From the UHGV virus genome UHGV-0353264: a stretch of DNA of 43,216 nucleotides, one strand, 5' to 3'. Numbering within the stretch: the stretch's first letter is position 1; each line of letters begins with the position of its first letter. This document shows, piece after piece, positions 4,223 to 35,318 of the stretch. The notes beneath the pieces were generated by a model that did not search any database, was not told the origin of the DNA, and saw only the letters and a program-made list of their open reading frames with translations. Origin of the DNA: a virus. Made by a program: the position numbers and the translations under genes.

Positions 4223-5020
4223 ATGCCCCTGGCGAAAATATTTACAAAGCAAGTTTCTTTATTAACTATGTTTTCAGCGTTAGCTTATGCGATGGCATAT
4301 TATTTTCAGAAAGGTGTCGCATCGTATTATGGCTATCCAGACCTTTTTATTAAAATAGACTTAAATACGCTATTGTATTCGGCTGTGTGGCTTTTGTTTT
4401 TTAGTTTTTTATTTCTCGGCGCCTTATATGCGGCGTTGATGTTTGATTTGAAAGGAAAATATTATGTTCCATTTATTGTATTTATAGTTGTTATGCTAAT
4501 GGCTAATATTTGTATAATAGGATTTCATTGGCCTTTTGGTTATTTCTCCGAAACTTCTGTGATGAGTGTTCAGGATATTTTATTATTTGCTATGCTTTTG
4601 TTGAATTATCACAATGTGGTGTCTATGCCAATCCATAGTAAGAGACACGAACATCATATGGAGAGCATTAGAAAATTTGGGAGGCTTGCAGAGTATAAGA
4701 ACGTATTTTATTATATCGATTTAAAAATCCTAAAGTCAGCTTTTCCTTTAGGGGTGATAACGTTGTTGATATTGAGCTATACATTCGGGAAGGTTACTGC
4801 ATTTAAAAATAACGAATATTATATGGTAGATGGTAGTAATACTAAAGTGTTGCTCAATTCATTTGGTAGTGGTTTTGTTGTTGGTGATTGTGAGTCAAAT
4901 AGCGCAAAATTTGAATTTGTTAATGATTTAAAAGGGATGAGATTCACAATCATGTCCTCTAAAAAGGAAATAGCTAAATTAAAAGAGTGTTTCGAAATAC
5001 GTGTTAAAAATACGGATTAA
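4223..5020 (+). CDS. AT-rich multi-pass membrane protein of unknown function (moron)
   Basis: 265 aa, about four hydrophobic segments N-terminally and a soluble C-terminal domain; strongly AT-rich; opposite strand to flanking replication genes; good RBS. Confidence 0.6.
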   Translation: MPLAKIFTKQVSLLTMFSALAYAMAYYFQKGVASYYGYPDLFIKIDLNTLLYSAVWLLFFSFLFLGALYAALMFDLKGKYYVPFIVFIVVMLMANICIIGFHWPFGYFSETSVMSVQDILLFAMLLLNYHNVVSMPIHSKRHEHHMESIRKFGRLAEYKNVFYYIDLKILKSAFPLGVITLLILSYTFGKVTAFKNNEYYMVDGSNTKVLLNSFGSGFVVGDCESNSAKFEFVNDLKGMRFTIMSSKKEIAKLKECFEIRVKNTD

Positions 5021-5320: not shown

Positions 5321-5514
5321 TAGCTTTCGCCTTCCTGCTTTTTGCGTTTCTTCATGCAGATAGCGCAGTTCTCAGGATGGTCATGCCATTCATCAATCCT
5401 GATACCTATGAACATCCATTTTCCGCATAGTGATATGGCTTCCCCCGAATTAAAGAAATGTGCTTTTTTTGACAGAGCGGGGAACCCCCAACCCTTATTA
5501 TCGATATTAGACAT
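5320..5514 (-). CDS. Small Cys/His-containing hypothetical protein
   Basis: 64 aa ORF in operon orientation between the TIR-like gene and VRR-NUC; no recognisable family. Confidence 0.4.
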   Translation of the reverse strand: MSNIDNKGWGFPALSKKAHFFNSGEAISLCGKWMFIGIRIDEWHDHPENCAICMKKRKKQEGES

Positions 5515-5699
5515 CGTCCACCTCCTTACGCTTTTCGCGCATGTTCTGCATCAGACAAAAATCAAACCGACGTTCGCTTTGGCCCAGACCTGCATCGCCC
5601 GGTCGTACCCGCCGGACTGTTCAAGGTGCAAAGCCTCCCGCACAGTCCGGTAATAAAGCGGACTGTCCCGGTATTTAAATGACATAGGGTTTTTATTCC

Positions 5700-5748: not shown

Positions 5749-6510
5749 TTACGAGGAAGCGTTAGCTATTTGAGCTTGTGTAAATTCGAAACCAGAATTT
5801 TGTAACCGTTGCACTAGACGAGGAACTGTTTCACGTACATGGTCGTTGAAATTCAGATACAAAATCCCGTTAGCATCAGAAGGCTGTTCTAGATGCTGTT
5901 TCTGAAGGATTGCTACATTGCTGCGCCCTAAGGACGAAAGAAGCATACCCATCTCGAGTACAACGTTCTGTCTTGCGCGGGGTTGGATTTCTGCTTCACC
6001 GGCGCGCTTTGAGTATCCCATATCATCAGGTGTCAAAAGAACAATCCCGAAACGGGTAGCAGTTTGTCCTTGCCCAATTTCACGTTCAAGCTCTTCAATA
6101 ATGGTGAGTCCAGTCCCTCCCGTATTCTGCAAAATGAAATGGTCTGGTAATCCAAGTTTATGAAGGATTAGCTCAAGTTGCTCCTTTGCAGTATGGTCAT
6201 GGCCGTGAACAATGAATATCTTTTTGGGGAGCTCAGATGGCTGTTCTACGGCTAGTGGTGTTGCCGTGGGCGGCGTTCCTAAATGGGTCATTATTGCAGT
6301 TTCAACATTGGGACGTTCTTGAGGGTTACCTTGAAACTGAATGGTCCGGGTGGTGTAAAGGTTAACAATTACGCCATTCGTTAAACGATAGCAGTCACAA
6401 GTCTCACGCTGTTCGTGGGAAAAATTGGTGAACCCACACTCCCTCAAAAAGTCAGGAAAAGATTCTCTCGGGTATGGATAGGTGATCGGCATTTCAGTTA
6501 GTTCCTGCAT
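5749..6510 (-). CDS. TIR-like domain nucleotide-binding protein (PF10137-like C-terminal domain) with unknown N-terminal domain
   Basis: 253 aa; C-terminal KKIFIVHGHD...FGIVLLTPDD...ARQNVVLEMGMLLSSLGRSNVAILQK matches the TIR-like signature as recalled. Lower GC than flanking polymerase; possible own promoter (ttgata in the 64-bp gap after the polymerase gene). Confidence 0.6.
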   Translation of the reverse strand: MQELTEMPITYPYPRESFPDFLRECGFTNFSHEQRETCDCYRLTNGVIVNLYTTRTIQFQGNPQERPNVETAIMTHLGTPPTATPLAVEQPSELPKKIFIVHGHDHTAKEQLELILHKLGLPDHFILQNTGGTGLTIIEELEREIGQGQTATRFGIVLLTPDDMGYSKRAGEAEIQPRARQNVVLEMGMLLSSLGRSNVAILQKQHLEQPSDANGILYLNFNDHVRETVPRLVQRLQNSGFEFTQAQIANASS

Positions 6511-6574: not shown

Positions 6575-8638
6575 TCAATCTTTTTTGTAGTGGTACGCCT
6601 CAAAACCGCCAGCGTTCAGTGGGATATCGGGCGCCCATTCGGGGTCAGTGGAGAGAAGCGCGGAAAGCGCTTTATCGTTGAAATCTTCTGTGTCAGGTGC
6701 TTCGGTGATCACCTCGTCGTGTACCGTCAGCACAATGCTGTAACCGGCATCTTCGATAAGCGGCATGTTTCCGGCCAGAATGTCGCGGGCGGCCGCCTGG
6801 GTGATGTTCTCCACCAGCTTTCCGCCGTAGGTTTTGAGTCGTTGCCATTTACGCGAATAAGAGTTAACCCCCATGTAGGTGATATTCCCTTTTTCGATAA
6901 CCGGAGACGGGTAGCATACAGCGCGTCCTGATGGTAGCTGTATGCGCAGCCACGCGCCATCGCGGCGGATTTTAAGATAACCGCAATACAATGTTTTTTG
7001 CGGTGTGGCGATTGCAGTGCGGACGGTGCGCTCCAGTTCGTACCAGAAATCACAGGTCGCGGGATGCGCCCGGCGCCAGAGACGTTTAAGTGAGTCGCAG
7101 GCGATAAATACCCGTTCAGAAAGCCCGTAGGTTGACTTGCGTTTAACCGATTCGTCGTACCAGCTTTTCGCCTCGCGGATAACATCGCGGGGAATGTTTG
7201 GTAGTGCGGCGTTCGCCAGCTCGTCGAGATCGAGACCGTAAACCAGTGCAAAAGTGATGAAGGCCGACACACCACCACCATAACCCAGACCGAGTTCCAT
7301 GACTTTACCGATCTGACGCATGTGTTTATCAACATCATCTGGTGCAATATCGAAAGCTTTTGCATACGCCAGTTTATATAAGTCCGGACCCGTTCCGGCG
7401 TCGTACTCTCTGAATGCATTCAGTTTCCATTCTTCTCCCGCCAGCCATGCCAGCATACGGCCTTCAATGTTCGACAAGTCACTTACCACCAGCTTTTTGC
7501 CTGTTGGCGCGATAATGCAGCCACGTAACGCTGAACTGGTTAGTTCCATGATATTGTCAAACAGCAGGTCTGCACATCCGGCTTTCAGTGCTTCGATGCC
7601 TTCGTCTATTTGTTCCTGTTTTAGTGAAGGGCGGGGAAGGTTCTGGGGCTGGAATAGCCGTCCGGCCCAACGACCGGTACGTGACGCCCCGCAGAACTGT
7701 AGCGTACCGCGTAAGCGCCCGTCGTGGCTTACGCCTTTCATCAGTGCCTTGTATTTACTGGTGCTGGTAGTACTGGCCTGCAGGCGGATAGCCAGCAGTT
7801 CTTTCACGGCAGATGGTAAATCGGGGTCGGCAATACGACGTTCCAGAGTACTGCGTTGCATGTCTGGTAGCTCCACACCGTAGGATTCAACAATGTGCTT
7901 AATCAACGCGTCTCGTTGTGTGGCTGCCTGCACTTCGCCATCAGTCATTTCCTGTGTACGCTTTGCCAGGCGCTTTTGTTCCTGGTCTACCGCGTCGATC
8001 GCAGCGCGTGCGAGTTCCACGTCCATGCAGACGCCCCGGTCATTGATCTGCTGATCACGATGCCAGAGCGCCAGTTCTGTCCCCTGATAATTCCACTTCG
8101 GCAGACGTTTATAGACTTCGCGCATTGCCTCGATATCCAGTCCGGCGTAAGCAACAAAGCGCCGCCATTCTTCCGGGTGGGTTTTGCTGGTGGCTCGGCG
8201 CAGTTTGCTGTTTTTCGGGCGTGGCTTACAGAACAGCTGGATCAGCGCTTTACCTTCTTTGTCCTTCGCTTTGTCTTGCGGGACGCCTAGTACTTCGCAG
8301 AGTTCCCCCAGAGACCCCGGGAGACCGTGCGCCAGCGCCTGCACCATTGTGTCGCGCCAACGTTCGACTGGCGGTGCCAGGCGCGGCATTGCATAACGCA
8401 GAACGGTGCGGTCGAAGTGAGAGTTATGGAAATAAAGCAGGGTTTCAGGGTCTGCGATTGCTTCGTATAAGCCGTGTGGAATACCACCACCGGCAGTGAT
8501 ATCCCACACGTTTACTGGCCCGTCGTTGATAGCCCATGCGAAAAGCATCACTTCAACGCCTTCGGCATACGCATGGGTACCGTTCGTAATAGGGATTTCG
8601 CAATAGGTTTCCAGGTCGCCCCATAGTATATTGGACAT
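6575..8638 (-). CDS. Family A DNA polymerase with N-terminal 3'-5' exonuclease
   Basis: 687 aa; exo motif WGDLET, polymerase motifs [16 protein letters not shown] and [10 protein letters not shown]. Confidence 0.9.
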
Positions 8639-8684
8639 GTGTTTACCTTGGTTTTTATTCTATTAACTGATTAAAAGATTAATT

Positions 8685-9314
8685 ATGCATATGATCCAAT
8701 ACTTGATTGACCATACAGAGCATCTGGAGAAAATAGCTGGATATATTTTTTCATGTTTGATTGTTATGGGAGTCTGGATAAGAAAGATCATTTTTAATTA
8801 TAAGTATAAAGAGCCTAAATATGTTAAGAAGTTAATTTTATATTTAGTTAAGTATGAACGTTATCTGGATGAGGAGGATAAGAGTGCCATAGAAAAAAGA
8901 ATAAATGATAAAATTATTCGTGATGCGCTGAAATTGCAATCCTCTTATAACCGAAGAGATGTTATTTACATTTGCAATAGATTAGACAAAAGACAGTATA
9001 TAAATCAGTTGGTTAAGCTTCAGAATTATATAGAGAAAGATAACGGAGTGTTTTTTATTAATGTTGATTTTTCAGGTTTTTTATTTATTATTAGTCGTCT
9101 GTTTTCCTTTCTGTGTTTTGTGCTGTTTACCCTTTTTTCTATTATCTGCATTATTTCCATAGGGCAAAATGAAGGCCTTTTAAATTATCTTGTGTATATG
9201 GTTATGATAATAGTTTTAGAGACTGTTGGTTTTTGGATGTATGATACTTTCCCGTCTAAGAAAAAGATCTGTGAACTAAATAAAGAATTGAGAAAGATTA
9301 AGATTCCTGAGTGA
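8685..9314 (+). CDS. AT-rich membrane protein of unknown function (moron)
   Basis: 209 aa; one N-terminal and two C-terminal hydrophobic segments; Lys/Tyr-rich; very AT-rich; opposite strand to the replication operon. Confidence 0.55.
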   Translation: MHMIQYLIDHTEHLEKIAGYIFSCLIVMGVWIRKIIFNYKYKEPKYVKKLILYLVKYERYLDEEDKSAIEKRINDKIIRDALKLQSSYNRRDVIYICNRLDKRQYINQLVKLQNYIEKDNGVFFINVDFSGFLFIISRLFSFLCFVLFTLFSIICIISIGQNEGLLNYLVYMVMIIVLETVGFWMYDTFPSKKKICELNKELRKIKIPE

Positions 9315-9366
9315 TTATACGCCTAATCAGTAGCCCGGTGTTTAACCGGGCGTCTATGAAGTAGGG

Positions 9367-9915
9367 TTAAATTAGTGCTTCAGCATCAGCACCTTCGCTG
9401 ATATCGTCGAAATCGTCAGCGCTTGCCACTCCGCCGCCAGCGAATGCATCGCCGTCTCGCAGGAACTGGACTCCGCCGAGTGAGGCATTAATGCGTTTAC
9501 CGAAATTATTGTCCTGTGCCCAGATATCGATAACGGCGTTTACATAGCACCCTGCATAGGGACGTCCGTCAGCCTGAATAAGTGGCGAACGATCGCGATC
9601 AAGAACAGCTGGGCGCGCTTTGTTAGCAGCATTCAGGAAGAAATTACCGGGGAAGCCTTCATACTCTGCTTTTTCATCACCATCATGCAGGCACAGATTG
9701 AGTTTTTTCTCCAGCTGGTTATAAATGGGCTCCCACTTCTCTCCCCATTTTTCCTTCGCTACCTGCTTCATAGCTTTACGGATTTCTTCCAGTTGTGGGT
9801 GTTTGGGTGACATTAAAAATACTGCGGAGAAACGTGGATCGCCTTCGCCGTTTACAGTTTTAGCTTCAAACAGAGACGGGAAGGCCAGACGAACATTGTT
9901 CAGCTTCAGTTTCAT
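9367..9915 (-). CDS. Phage single-stranded DNA-binding protein (DUF2815-like)
   Basis: 182 aa; N-terminus MKLKLNNVRLAFPSLFEA and acidic C-terminal tail (DDFDDISEGADAEALI) typical of SSB; sits next to the DUF2800-like nuclease. Confidence 0.6.
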   Translation of the reverse strand: MKLKLNNVRLAFPSLFEAKTVNGEGDPRFSAVFLMSPKHPQLEEIRKAMKQVAKEKWGEKWEPIYNQLEKKLNLCLHDGDEKAEYEGFPGNFFLNAANKARPAVLDRDRSPLIQADGRPYAGCYVNAVIDIWAQDNNFGKRINASLGGVQFLRDGDAFAGGGVASADDFDDISEGADAEALI

Positions 9916-34787: not shown

Positions 34788-35318
34788 ATGTGCAATCAAA
34801 GGAATGAGGCTGTTGGCCTTGAAGTAGATACGATTTTGTCGTACTCGAGAGACAGGTATGAAGAAGTTAAGACAACATACAGGCGGTTAGAGGACAAAGC
34901 TAATTTTCTTCTTGCTGTGCTTGGTGTTGAGATTTCTGCATTATTAGCCGTTTTTGGGTCCTTTGAGCTGGGACAACAGTTAAAGACTAGTCTATCCGCA
35001 AGATTGTCTCTATTGTGTCTATGTTCATGTTTTGTATGTTTGGTTTTTTGTTTTTATTATTTATGGAAATGTTGGGAACTTAGAAATATTCCCAAAATGC
35101 CTGTGCATCGAACACCTGAACAACATGAATTTCTTCTGAGGGGTAGTAGAGATGACACAGTCAGATTTCATTTGATAATGTATGGTAGGGCTATTGATAG
35201 AATCGAGAAAATCCATAAAGAAAAATCAGCGTTTGTGAATGAGTTGTTTCGATGGATGGTTATGTCATTTGTATTTTTTATTATTTCCGTAACGTGCATG
35301 TTAATAAGTAAGGTTTGA
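34788..35318 (+). CDS. Two-transmembrane-helix membrane protein of unknown function (moron)
   Basis: 176 aa; strongly AT-rich; hydrophobic hairpin (LLAVLGVEISALLAVFGSF, LSLLCLCSCFVCLVFCFYYLW) plus a further C-terminal hydrophobic segment. Confidence 0.5.
   Translation: MCNQRNEAVGLEVDTILSYSRDRYEEVKTTYRRLEDKANFLLAVLGVEISALLAVFGSFELGQQLKTSLSARLSLLCLCSCFVCLVFCFYYLWKCWELRNIPKMPVHRTPEQHEFLLRGSRDDTVRFHLIMYGRAIDRIEKIHKEKSAFVNELFRWMVMSFVFFIISVTCMLISKV

What the first reader, a model, noticed from the sequence alone, without database searches (positions are those of the whole stretch)
8685..9314. Second AT-rich membrane protein moron between DNA polymerase and SSB
A 209-aa Lys/Tyr-rich protein with one N-terminal and two C-terminal hydrophobic segments is encoded antisense to the replication operon, with very low GC and a GC-rich hairpin at its 3' end (9323-9350). 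It looks independently acquired; function unknown.
Basis: inference. Interest (0 to 1): 0.45.

Follow-up and report, generated by a model that had tools for sequence, protein, structure and literature searches.

The report
Swappable prophage membrane-protein cargo gene
This is a real but non-essential gene that an E. coli prophage carries in a swappable cargo slot of its DNA-replication operon; it encodes an inner-membrane protein of a rare, unstudied family that most likely keeps rival phages out, though this has not been tested.

Summary
Bases 8685-9314 (+) are a 209-codon ORF at 29% GC, against 49% for the window. It has one N-terminal and two C-terminal membrane helices and lies antisense between PolA and the Enc34-type SSB (DUF2815).

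The window is an E. coli IAI1-type prophage. The gene is not core: 159 complete E. coli genomes match the module segment, and 67 carry this gene.

Among 80 related viral contigs:
- 10 have an empty 84-86 bp junction.
- The others carry SIR2 (PADLOC PDC-S25), Nmad5, an antirepressor, SPFH or other cargo.
- 22 carry this gene or a deeply diverged homologue (199-aa and 223-aa alleles, 17-25% identity, hhalign E 1e-15), always antisense.

The family is rare, with 11 clusters among 1.84 billion representative proteins, and every named or traced member is from Enterobacterales. It always occurs alone, and mostly in cargo regions of mobile elements: the P2 S/V slot, upstream of lambdoid Q, prophage ends, a conjugative element and a defence island.

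It matches no Pfam, PADLOC, NCBIfam, PDB or fold entry. Its architecture resembles P22 SieA, but homology is not supported.

The GC-rich hairpin belongs to the backbone, not to the cargo.

Best reading: a lysogen-expressed inner-membrane phage-exclusion or defence protein. This is inferred, not shown.

The parts
8685..9314 (+). Cargo gene: 209-aa inner-membrane protein (RefSeq WP_000551020.1 'hypothetical protein'; PHROG 10579, unknown function)
   Evidence: ORF. It matches the IAI1 annotation at 99.9% nucleotide identity. PHROG match E 1.5e-107. No Pfam, PADLOC or NCBIfam family.
8733..8795 (+). TM1 (residues 17-37), preceded by a short, net-acidic N-terminus predicted to be periplasmic
   Evidence: Hydropathy, AF2 helix 11-37, and charge distribution across 21 family members.
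8796..9071 (+). Central basic domain (residues 38-129; +20/-14) predicted to be cytoplasmic: four helices and a beta-hairpin, with conserved Y57, R90, Y95 and F123-I125
   Evidence: AF2 model built with the alignment. Charge counts and conservation. A profile of this domain matches nothing in the PDB sequences. All five amino-acid differences between E. coli alleles fall in residues 55-110.
9072..9245 (+). TM2-TM3 helical hairpin (residues 130-160 and 165-187) joined by a 4-residue periplasmic turn. R138 lies in TM2 and E179 in TM3.
   Evidence: R138 is conserved in 86% of members. E179 is invariant in the 209-aa subfamily.
9246..9311 (+). Basic cytoplasmic C-terminal helix carrying the family's most conserved motif, FP-x4-I-x3-N-x-E-L-x-K (P190, I195, N199 invariant, L202, K204)
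   Evidence: Alignments A1 and A2.
8639..9332 (.). The variable cassette (694 bp). It starts immediately after the polA start codon and ends at the conserved hairpin. It also contains the polA ribosome-binding region.
   Evidence: Junction comparison with five other cargo types and with empty sites.
9333..9351 (.). GC-rich hairpin (7-bp stem) downstream of the DUF2815 stop. It is a backbone element and has no U-tract in this version.
   Evidence: Fold. No terminator call. The hairpin is shared with loci carrying SIR2 or Ant cargo. The empty-site version has a TTTT tail.
8632..8661 (+). Weak sigma-70-like site (TGGACA-18-TATTCT). Its -35 overlaps the polA start codon. It is only a candidate promoter for the cargo gene.
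   Evidence: There were 5 sites in the region against 3.8 +/- 2.4 expected in shuffles, so this is not evidence on its own.
6575..8638 (-). Left flank: family-A DNA polymerase (backbone)
   Evidence: Pfam DNA_pol_A. Conserved in all related loci.
9367..9915 (-). Right flank: Enc34-type ssDNA-binding protein (DUF2815) (backbone)
   Evidence: Pfam PF10991, E 7.6e-44. It is 92-100% identical in the 80 viral contigs.

Best explanation
The gene is accessory cargo in a hypervariable slot of the prophage's early replication operon, between the Enc34-type SSB gene and polA.

It encodes a three-helix inner-membrane protein. The predicted topology is N-terminus out, a roughly 90-residue basic domain in the cytoplasm, a tight TM2-TM3 hairpin, and a conserved basic C-terminal helix in the cytoplasm.

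Proposed mechanism (inferred). The gene lies antisense to the repressed early operon, so it would be made in the lysogen. From the inner membrane it would protect the lysogen against other phages in one of two ways:
- It blocks passage of incoming phage DNA across the inner membrane, as P22 SieA, T4 Imm and HK97 gp15 do.
- It collapses the membrane once its cytoplasmic domain senses infection, as abortive-infection effectors of the lambda RexB type do.

On induction, read-through of the early operon towards polA would run antisense across the gene and silence it.

Shown here: the gene is real, it is accessory and replaceable, and it is a predicted membrane protein. It also belongs to a rare family, traced only to Enterobacterales, that always occurs alone and is found in the cargo regions of several kinds of mobile element.

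Inferred only: expression in lysogens, the anti-phage role, and which of the two membrane mechanisms applies.
For: Accessory status:
- 67 of the 159 complete E. coli genomes that match the module carry the gene.
- Ten of 80 related viral contigs have an empty junction of 84-86 bp.

Hotspot with defence-type content:
- The same slot holds a SIR2 protein matching PADLOC PDC-S25 at E 7e-157.
- It also holds a DUF4145 protein, an SPFH lipoprotein with a small 2-TM protein, and other small membrane proteins.
- A second hotspot 2 kb away holds a TIR protein matching PDC-S35.

One family with swapped, deeply diverged alleles:
- The 209-, 199- and 223-aa forms are homologous (hhalign E 2.6e-15 and 1.6e-16).
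- They share only 17-25% identity, while the flanking SSB is at least 92% identical.
- All three forms are antisense.

Solo cargo in unrelated mobile elements:
- P2-like prophage between gpS and gpV, a recognised P2 moron region (PMC6823313).
- Lambdoid prophage just upstream of Q and near a dGTPase defence gene.
- Ends of lambdoid prophages.
- A conjugative element.
- The end of a CP4-type island.
- A Serratia integrase island beside PtuA/PtuB-like genes and a type I R-M system.

Other support:
- The gene is 6-24 GC points below its flanks in all 12 contexts examined.
- The topology follows the positive-inside rule in all 21 members examined.
- The AF2 model has pLDDT 81.7.
- The architecture parallels P22 SieA, a 164-aa inner-membrane protein with three TM helices and a conserved cytoplasmic C-terminal motif (PMC10883804; sequence).
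Against: - There is no functional or expression data of any kind.
- No family member matches PADLOC 2.0 at a meaningful level.
- No family member matches the Pfam SieA, SieB, RexB or Imm models.
- Similarity to SieA is at background level: hhalign E 0.23, against 0.19-0.46 for unrelated membrane proteins.
- Promoter-like sites are not enriched and no terminator was found.
- A 29% GC gene in E. coli may be silenced by H-NS (general knowledge).
- In P2-like and some lambdoid contexts the gene is co-directional with late genes. Expression restricted to lysogeny is therefore not a family rule.
- Two members sit between housekeeping genes with no visible mobile element.
- Guilt by association in cargo hotspots fits other accessory functions equally well.
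Confidence: 0.45

Rival explanations
1. Abortive-infection effector rather than an entry blocker. The cytoplasmic domain senses a phage product or incoming DNA. The TM2-TM3 hairpin, with its membrane-embedded Arg138 and Glu179, then oligomerises with TM1 into a holin-like lesion that depolarises the cell. This is a sub-variant of the best explanation and is counted separately here only for the mechanism.
For: The topology is that of a class I holin (N-out, C-in, three TM helices, basic C-tail), with a 92-residue cytoplasmic insert. Almost nothing is exposed to the periplasm: 8-19 N-terminal residues and a 3-4-residue loop in most members. Conserved charged residues lie inside TM2 and TM3. All allelic amino-acid changes within E. 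coli fall in the cytoplasmic domain.
Against: Holin Pfam hits are only noise: 7 members, best E 0.25. The prophage has its own lambda-type holin, endolysin and spanin. There is no evidence of toxicity. The allelic variation is only six codon changes.
Confidence: 0.2
2. An accessory membrane protein with a role other than defence. Examples are modulation of host envelope or stress physiology, control of lysis timing, or addiction or toxicity that benefits only the mobile element.
For: Prophage cargo slots also hold non-defence genes, such as Nmad5, an AntA antirepressor and SPFH in this very slot. Some family members are orphan chromosomal genes. Nothing in the sequence points to a phage-specific activity.
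Against: The protein has no enzymatic motif, no transporter-like fold and no partner gene. The repeated replacement by 17-25%-identical alleles between near-identical flanks is more typical of conflict genes. The same holds for its presence in P2, lambdoid, conjugative-element and defence-island cargo sites.
Confidence: 0.25
3. A component of the phage's own replication machinery, for example a membrane anchor for the replisome, as its position between the SSB gene and polA might suggest.
For: Only its position inside the replication operon.
Against: It is antisense to the operon. It is absent from about 58% of the E. coli genomes that match the module and from 58 of 80 related viral contigs, ten of which have an empty junction. 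Homologues lie in tail modules, at prophage ends, in a conjugative element and in islands with no such replication genes nearby.
Confidence: 0.03
4. A spurious ORF in AT-rich intergenic DNA.
For: None beyond the weak Shine-Dalgarno sequence upstream of the ATG.
Against: The open frame is 209 codons long in 29% GC DNA. Length, three-TM architecture and C-terminal motif are conserved at 20-42% identity across ten genera. The AF2 model is confident once the alignment is supplied.
Confidence: 0.01

Closest known systems
P22 SieA (superinfection exclusion protein A; Pfam PF26849)
   Same: Both are small, prophage-borne, solo inner-membrane proteins. Both have one N-terminal TM helix, a charged cytoplasmic segment, two C-terminal TM helices and a short basic cytoplasmic tail. 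In both, the tail carries the family's best-conserved motif: SieA has FxRYPxEAxxFNK and this family has FPxxxxIxxLNxELxK. Both exist as deeply diverged types (PMC10883804; sequence).
   Different: There is no detectable sequence relationship: hhalign probability 0.3%, E 0.23, the same as for unrelated controls. No member hits PF26849. The cytoplasmic domain is about 92 residues here, against about 50 in SieA. The Pro-to-Asn spacing in the tail motif differs (9 against 7). The genomic position and the phage type also differ.
Other membrane-level phage exclusion or abortive-infection proteins: T4 Imm, HK97 gp15, lambda RexB, lambda/P22 SieB
   Same: All are small integral inner-membrane proteins made by a resident phage. 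They act on incoming phage DNA or on membrane potential (established knowledge; not tested here).
   Different: None is similar in sequence. No Pfam model of these families is hit at E up to 10. TM number and domain layout differ. RexB needs a partner, RexA, whereas this family always occurs alone.
Morons of P2-like phages in the gpS/gpV slot (the P2 orf30 position)
   Same: A homologue with 38% identity occupies exactly this slot in Rahnella and other Enterobacterales P2-like prophages. The slot is one of three recognised P2 moron regions, and its occupants have no known function (PMC6823313).
   Different: P2 orf30 itself is an ORF of only 261 bp, and no relationship to this family was shown or tested.
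Candidate single-gene defence systems found in the same hotspots (PADLOC PDC-S25 SIR2 and PDC-S35 TIR)
   Same: They occupy the same slot or the neighbouring one in sister prophages, are AT-rich, and are single genes.
   Different: Those are soluble NAD-hydrolase-type proteins. This protein has no enzymatic domain and is membrane-embedded.

Membership tests
P22 SieA family (PF26849) | Significant sequence or profile match to SieA | tested here: not met
   hmmscan of 21 family members against Pfam at E up to 10 gave no PF26849 hit. hhalign of the family profile against a SieA alignment gave probability 0.27% and E 0.23. Unrelated membrane proteins gave E 0.19-0.46.
P22 SieA family (PF26849) | Inner-membrane protein with three transmembrane helices | tested here: inconclusive
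   Three TM helices are predicted by hydropathy, by AF2 and by the positive-inside rule. Actual membrane localisation cannot be tested here.
P22 SieA family (PF26849) | Conserved cytoplasmic C-terminal motif FxRYPxEAxxFNK | tested here: not met
   The family has a similar-looking but differently spaced motif, FPxxxxIxxLNxELxK. hhalign aligns Pro with Pro and Asn with Asn only by inserting a gap, and the score is not significant.
P22 SieA family (PF26849) | Blocks DNA delivery by superinfecting phages when expressed from the prophage | not testable with these tools
   Needs plating, potassium-efflux and DNA-entry assays.
Moron (extra gene inserted between genes that are adjacent in related phages, with its own promoter and terminator and atypical composition) | The flanking genes are adjacent in related phages | tested here: met
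   DUF2815 and polA are separated by only 84-86 bp in 10 of 80 related viral contigs.
Moron (extra gene inserted between genes that are adjacent in related phages, with its own promoter and terminator and atypical composition) | Nucleotide composition unlike that of the surrounding genome | tested here: met
   29.4% GC against 48.8% for the window and 54% for polA. Family genes are 6-24 points below their flanks in 12 other contexts.
Moron (extra gene inserted between genes that are adjacent in related phages, with its own promoter and terminator and atypical composition) | Own promoter and terminator | tested here: inconclusive
   One weak sigma-70-like site overlaps the polA start, but such sites are not more frequent than in shuffles. 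No intrinsic terminator was found, and the 3' hairpin lacks a U-tract and belongs to the backbone.
Known or candidate anti-phage defence systems (PADLOC-DB 2.0) | Match to a defence-protein model | tested here: not met
   No hit for the query or for the 199-aa allele, P0005, P0007 or P0063. The only hit is a stray E 4e-4 match of P0010 to PDC-S47.
Class I holins | Three TM helices, N-out/C-in, with a charged C-terminal tail | tested here: met
   Predicted topology. Prediction only.
Class I holins | Small size (about 100 aa), a position in the lysis cassette next to the endolysin, and a match to a holin family | tested here: not met
   The protein is 209 aa with a 92-residue cytoplasmic insert. 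It lies in the replication operon, while the prophage has its own lambda-family holin beside its endolysin. Holin Pfam hits are noise, best E 0.25.
Conjugative entry-exclusion proteins (TraS/Eex) | Match to a TraS or Eex model and linkage to traG in conjugative elements | tested here: not met
   One of 21 members hits PF10624 at E 0.1 only. Only one of the contexts examined is conjugative, and there the gene lies about 2 kb from a TraG_N gene on the opposite strand.

The most novel reading that the evidence does not exclude
The 209-, 199- and 223-aa proteins define a previously unrecognised family, so far traced only to Enterobacterales, of single-protein inner-membrane phage-exclusion factors. 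They are SieA-like in architecture but unrelated, or unrecognisably related, in sequence. They circulate as interchangeable, hyper-diverged specificity alleles among the cargo hotspots of at least four kinds of mobile element: prophages with an Enc34-type replication module, P2-like prophages, lambdoid prophages, and conjugative or integrative islands.
Probability: 0.35. Interest if true: 0.55.

Novelty: new variant of a known kind. Interest (0 to 1): 0.4.

Why it matters
If the inference holds, this adds a new protein family to the few known membrane-level superinfection-exclusion or abortive-infection factors of Gram-negative prophages. Those factors are poorly understood mechanistically, and current defence-finding catalogues largely miss them.

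The locus also offers a clean natural experiment. Near-identical prophage backbones carry an empty site, three deeply diverged alleles of one family, or unrelated defence-type genes such as SIR2 at the same junction. This makes allele-swap tests of specificity straightforward.

The result also marks the SSB-polA junction, and the polA-VRR-NUC junction beside it, as cargo hotspots in a common group of E. coli prophages. These hotspots could be mined for further candidates.

If the inference fails, the gene is simply one more uncharacterised prophage accessory membrane protein.

Tried and rejected
Searches with no informative result:
- Pfam, PADLOC, NCBIfam and PHROGs. The only match is PHROG 10579, of unknown function.
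- PDB sequence searches with the whole-family profile and with a profile of the central domain alone: no hit below E 1.
- Single-sequence AlphaFold gave a poor model, pLDDT 54. The alignment-based model was good.
- Foldseek against PDB and BFVD found nothing better than E 0.28.
- tblastn against plasmids found nothing, and against phages only three near-identical induced E. coli prophages.
- Rfam and repeat searches around the gene found nothing, including no flanking repeats.
- Literature searches by accession number, phage name and PHROG id found no paper.

Hypotheses tested and not supported:
- Homology to P22 SieA: background-level score.
- Relationship to the window's other AT-rich membrane gene (4223-5020), and to the single-TM 166-174-aa cargo proteins found in the same slot elsewhere: none.
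- Functional link to the nearby TIR gene: rejected, because the two assort independently among related contigs.

Inconclusive:
- Promoter and terminator scans in five contexts gave nothing above the shuffle expectation.
- dN/dS within E. coli is based on only six codon differences, five of them non-synonymous. That is too few to interpret.
- The M1-H2-M3 start resembles the lambda S dual-start motif, but it is not conserved in homologues, so I dropped it.

Full report
**1. The observation**

Bases 8685-9314 on the plus strand are an ATG-to-TGA ORF of 209 codons. Its GC content is 29.4%, against 48.8% for the whole window, 54.2% for the adjacent polymerase gene and 49.0% for the SSB gene. The richness in Lys, Tyr, Ile, Asn and Phe follows from the AT-rich codons.

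Hydropathy gives three membrane-length segments, at residues 17-37, 130-160 and 165-187. An AlphaFold model built with a 21-sequence family alignment places long helices at 11-37, 132-160 and 165-188 (mean pLDDT 81.7).

Both neighbours lie on the minus strand. They are a family-A DNA polymerase (6575-8638) and PF10991, the Enc34 ssDNA-binding protein/DUF2815 (9367-9915).

The ORF is not a chance product. An open frame of this length in 29% GC DNA is very improbable. Full-length homologues at 20-42% identity keep the same length, the same three helices and the same C-terminal motif in other genera.

The hairpin is real, with a 7-bp stem at 9333-9351. It has no U-tract on either strand and is not called as a terminator.

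**2. What the window is**

The region is 99.9% identical to a prophage of E. coli IAI1. That prophage is integrated next to yfhL and acpS, and it has an integrase, a CI-like repressor, a VapE primase-helicase, a Q antiterminator, a lambda-type lysis cassette and myovirus-type structural genes. It is 97.5% identical to three induced phages of the vB_EcoM-606R2 group. RefSeq annotates the gene as hypothetical protein WP_000551020.1.

**3. The gene is cargo in a hotspot**

A 3.5-kb query spanning polA, the gene, DUF2815 and DUF2800 matches 159 of 5,426 complete E. coli genomes. Only 67 of them carry this gene. Other genomes carry something else at exactly the same place:
- an Nmad5 gene with either an 89-aa two-TM protein or a 229-aa soluble protein;
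- a 199-aa membrane protein, with or without an AntA-type antirepressor;
- a BRO-N protein;
- an HNH endonuclease;
- a 493-aa SIR2 protein.

The SIR2 protein matches the PADLOC candidate defence system PDC-S25 at E 7e-157.

I then fetched 80 viral contigs whose DUF2815 protein is 92-100% identical to the window's and measured the distance from the DUF2815 stop to the polA start:
- 10 contigs are empty (84-86 bp);
- 11 have the 209-aa gene;
- 10 have the 199-aa gene;
- 1 has a 223-aa relative;
- 20 have Nmad5 variants;
- 7 have SIR2;
- the rest hold other small genes, including an SPFH/Band-7 lipoprotein with a 63-aa two-TM protein, a DUF4145 protein, and single-TM proteins of 166-174 aa.

Sequence identity to other cargo types stops immediately after the polA ATG on one side. 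It resumes 34 bp before the DUF2815 stop on the other side. The cassette in the window is therefore 8639-9332.

The hairpin and the 15 bases after it are shared with loci that carry SIR2 or Ant cargo. The empty junction has a related hairpin followed by TTTT. So the hairpin is part of the backbone downstream of DUF2815 and did not arrive with the gene.

No flanking repeats or known RNA elements were found.

**4. The protein family**

A word-indexed search of 5.8 billion proteins found only the gene's own 90% cluster and fragments of it. An exhaustive HMMER scan of 1.84 billion representative proteins found 11 clusters in all. Every member that could be named or traced is from Enterobacterales: Escherichia, Enterobacter, Klebsiella aerogenes, Pluralibacter, Citrobacter, Rahnella, Rouxiella, Serratia, Pantoea/Erwiniaceae and Xenorhabdus. 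All are annotated as hypothetical or carry no name.

The 199-aa protein that replaces the gene in sister prophages is a true homologue: hhalign between the two subfamily alignments gives probability 98.5%, E 2.6e-15, over 190 columns. So is the 223-aa protein of contig L079, at E 1.6e-16.

These alleles share only 17-25% identity with the window's protein, while the flanking SSB stays at least 92% identical. All lie antisense to the operon. This pattern indicates replacement from a wider gene pool rather than divergence in place.

**5. Where the relatives sit**

Every context examined shows a solo gene with no conserved partner:
- between tail genes gpS and gpV of P2-like prophages in Rahnella and in an Enterobacterales metagenome-assembled genome, a recognised P2 moron region (PMC6823313);
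- immediately upstream of Q in a lambdoid prophage of an Erwiniaceae isolate, 2 kb from a dGTPase defence gene;
- at the far end of lambdoid prophages in Citrobacter, after umuDC-like genes, and in Xenorhabdus;
- in a conjugative element with a TraG_N gene;
- at the variable end of a CP4-type island in Enterobacter;
- in a Serratia integrase island beside a DUF6338 membrane protein, a PtuA/PtuB-like pair and a type I R-M specificity subunit;
- twice as an orphan between housekeeping genes.

In all 12 contexts measured, the gene is 6-24 GC points below its flanks.

**6. Anatomy and topology**

Across 21 members the short N-terminus is net acidic. The roughly 90-residue central segment is strongly basic (+13 to +22). 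The TM2-TM3 loop is 3-4 residues in all but two members, and the C-terminal tail is basic in most.

By the positive-inside rule this gives N-out, central domain in, a tight hairpin, and C-in. Almost nothing faces the periplasm.

The model shows four helices and a beta-hairpin in the central domain, and a final amphipathic helix. Conservation peaks in the C-terminal tail (P190, I195, invariant N199, L202, K204). It is also seen at R90, Y95, F123-I125 and R138 inside TM2. E179 in TM3 is invariant in the 209-aa subfamily.

There is no enzymatic motif. Nothing matches in Pfam, NCBIfam, PADLOC or PDB sequences, and Foldseek against PDB and BFVD found nothing.

Within E. coli the two main alleles differ at six codons. 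Five of the changes are non-synonymous and all five lie in the central domain. That is too few to interpret.

**7. Most likely mechanism**

The following points are shown by the analysis:
- the gene is dispensable for the phage;
- it sits in a slot that also takes defence-type genes;
- it moves alone between the cargo regions of unrelated mobile elements;
- it is exchanged as very divergent alleles;
- it encodes an inner-membrane protein with its mass in the cytoplasm and the bilayer.

These features together are typical of resident-element genes that act against incoming phages.

I therefore propose that it is made in the lysogen and acts at the inner membrane. Its antisense orientation to the repressed early operon is the argument for expression in the lysogen. 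It would either block translocation of superinfecting phage DNA or, after sensing infection through the cytoplasmic domain, form a holin-like lesion that aborts the infection. On induction, transcription towards polA must cross the cassette antisense and would tend to shut the gene off.

All of this paragraph is inference. Promoter-like sites are not enriched and no terminator was found. In P2-like and some lambdoid contexts the gene points the same way as late genes.

I put the defence or exclusion reading as a whole at about 0.45. Within it I have no strong preference between entry block and abortive infection.

**8. Comparison with known systems**

The nearest analogue is P22 SieA. It is a 164-aa inner-membrane protein with three predicted TM helices that exists as deeply diverged types. 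Its best-conserved motif, FxRYPxEAxxFNK, lies on the cytoplasmic side near the C-terminus (PMC10883804). Its layout is TM1, a charged segment, TM2, TM3 and a basic tail, which is the layout found here, and the tail motifs look alike.

Membership fails, however. No family member hits the SieA Pfam model. The profile-profile score against a SieA alignment is E 0.23. That is indistinguishable from the scores of two unrelated membrane proteins, E 0.19 and 0.46.

So the protein may work like SieA, but it cannot be filed as a SieA. It also fails the tests for holins, TraS/Eex and all PADLOC models.

It satisfies two of the three criteria for a moron: the flanking genes are adjacent in relatives, and its composition is atypical. 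The third criterion, an own promoter and terminator, is undecided.

**9. Novelty and verdict**

The gene is already in databases as a hypothetical protein and as PHROG 10579. I found no paper that names it.

The analysis adds the following:
- the gene occupies a defined, hypervariable cargo junction with demonstrable empty sites;
- three deeply diverged alleles of one rare Enterobacterales family alternate there;
- the family travels alone among several kinds of mobile element;
- its architecture parallels SieA without detectable homology.

That makes it a reasonable candidate for a new membrane-level exclusion or defence family, which is a new variant of a known kind. It is not a surprising new principle, and it has no functional evidence yet. 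Interest: 0.4.

Noticed in passing
window 5749-6510 (-): A 253-aa protein with a CAP12/Pycsar-type TIR domain matches the PADLOC candidate single-gene system PDC-S35 (E 7e-109). It is itself variable cargo in a second hotspot between the polA 3' end and the VRR-NUC gene. It is present in 15 of 63 full-length related contigs, and the gap there ranges from 219 to 1507 bp. It assorts independently of the 209-aa gene.
   Followed up: partly
window 4223-5020 (+): This is the 'first' AT-rich membrane-protein gene: 265 aa, GC about 0.32-0.38, antisense between the SNF2-type helicase and VRR-NUC. It has no Pfam or PADLOC hit and is unrelated to the 209-aa family.
   Followed up: partly
L075:5547-5636, and likewise L072, L077, L078, L080, L081, L086, L096, L097, L100: The empty DUF2815-polA junction contains the hairpin CACCCGGC-CATG-CGCCGGGTG followed by TTTT, just upstream of the polA ribosome-binding site. 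This may be an attenuator or terminator inside the replication operon. The window's version of the hairpin has lost the T-run.
   Followed up: partly
window 40276-41247 (-), 41918-42565 (-), 42624-43055 (-): There is a low-GC block (about 0.31-0.42) at the far end of the prophage. The first ORF is an Acyl_transf_3 protein, the family that includes O-antigen acetyltransferases, so it may be a lysogenic-conversion gene. The other two ORFs have no family hit.
   Followed up: partly
window 34788-35318 (+): A 176-aa ORF lies in a GC dip (0.36) inside the tail-gene block. It has no Pfam hit and only a weak resemblance to PADLOC PycTM models (E 2.6e-4, no stretch passing on its own).
   Followed up: no
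L005:1828-3309 (-), and L038, L047, L048, L051, L064, L065: In sister prophages the same slot holds a 493-aa SIR2 protein at 33% GC that matches PADLOC PDC-S25 (E 7e-157). A strong bidirectional terminator-like hairpin lies between it and polA.
   Followed up: partly
L016:4805-11592 (Serratia sp. Ag1): The family homologue lies in an integrase island next to a DUF6338 membrane protein, a PtuA/PtuB-like ATPase and HNH pair, and a type I R-M specificity subunit. This looks like a compact defence island.
   Followed up: partly
L083:5576-6612 and L095 (same slot): Another cargo type in this slot, co-directional with the operon, is a 63-70-aa two-TM protein followed by a 275-aa lipoprotein with an SPFH/Band-7 domain.
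   Followed up: no
window about 5507-5685 (-), corresponding to L001:8868-9046: RefSeq annotates a frameshifted ANR-family regulator pseudogene here, between the TIR gene and the 64-aa ORF.
   Followed up: no
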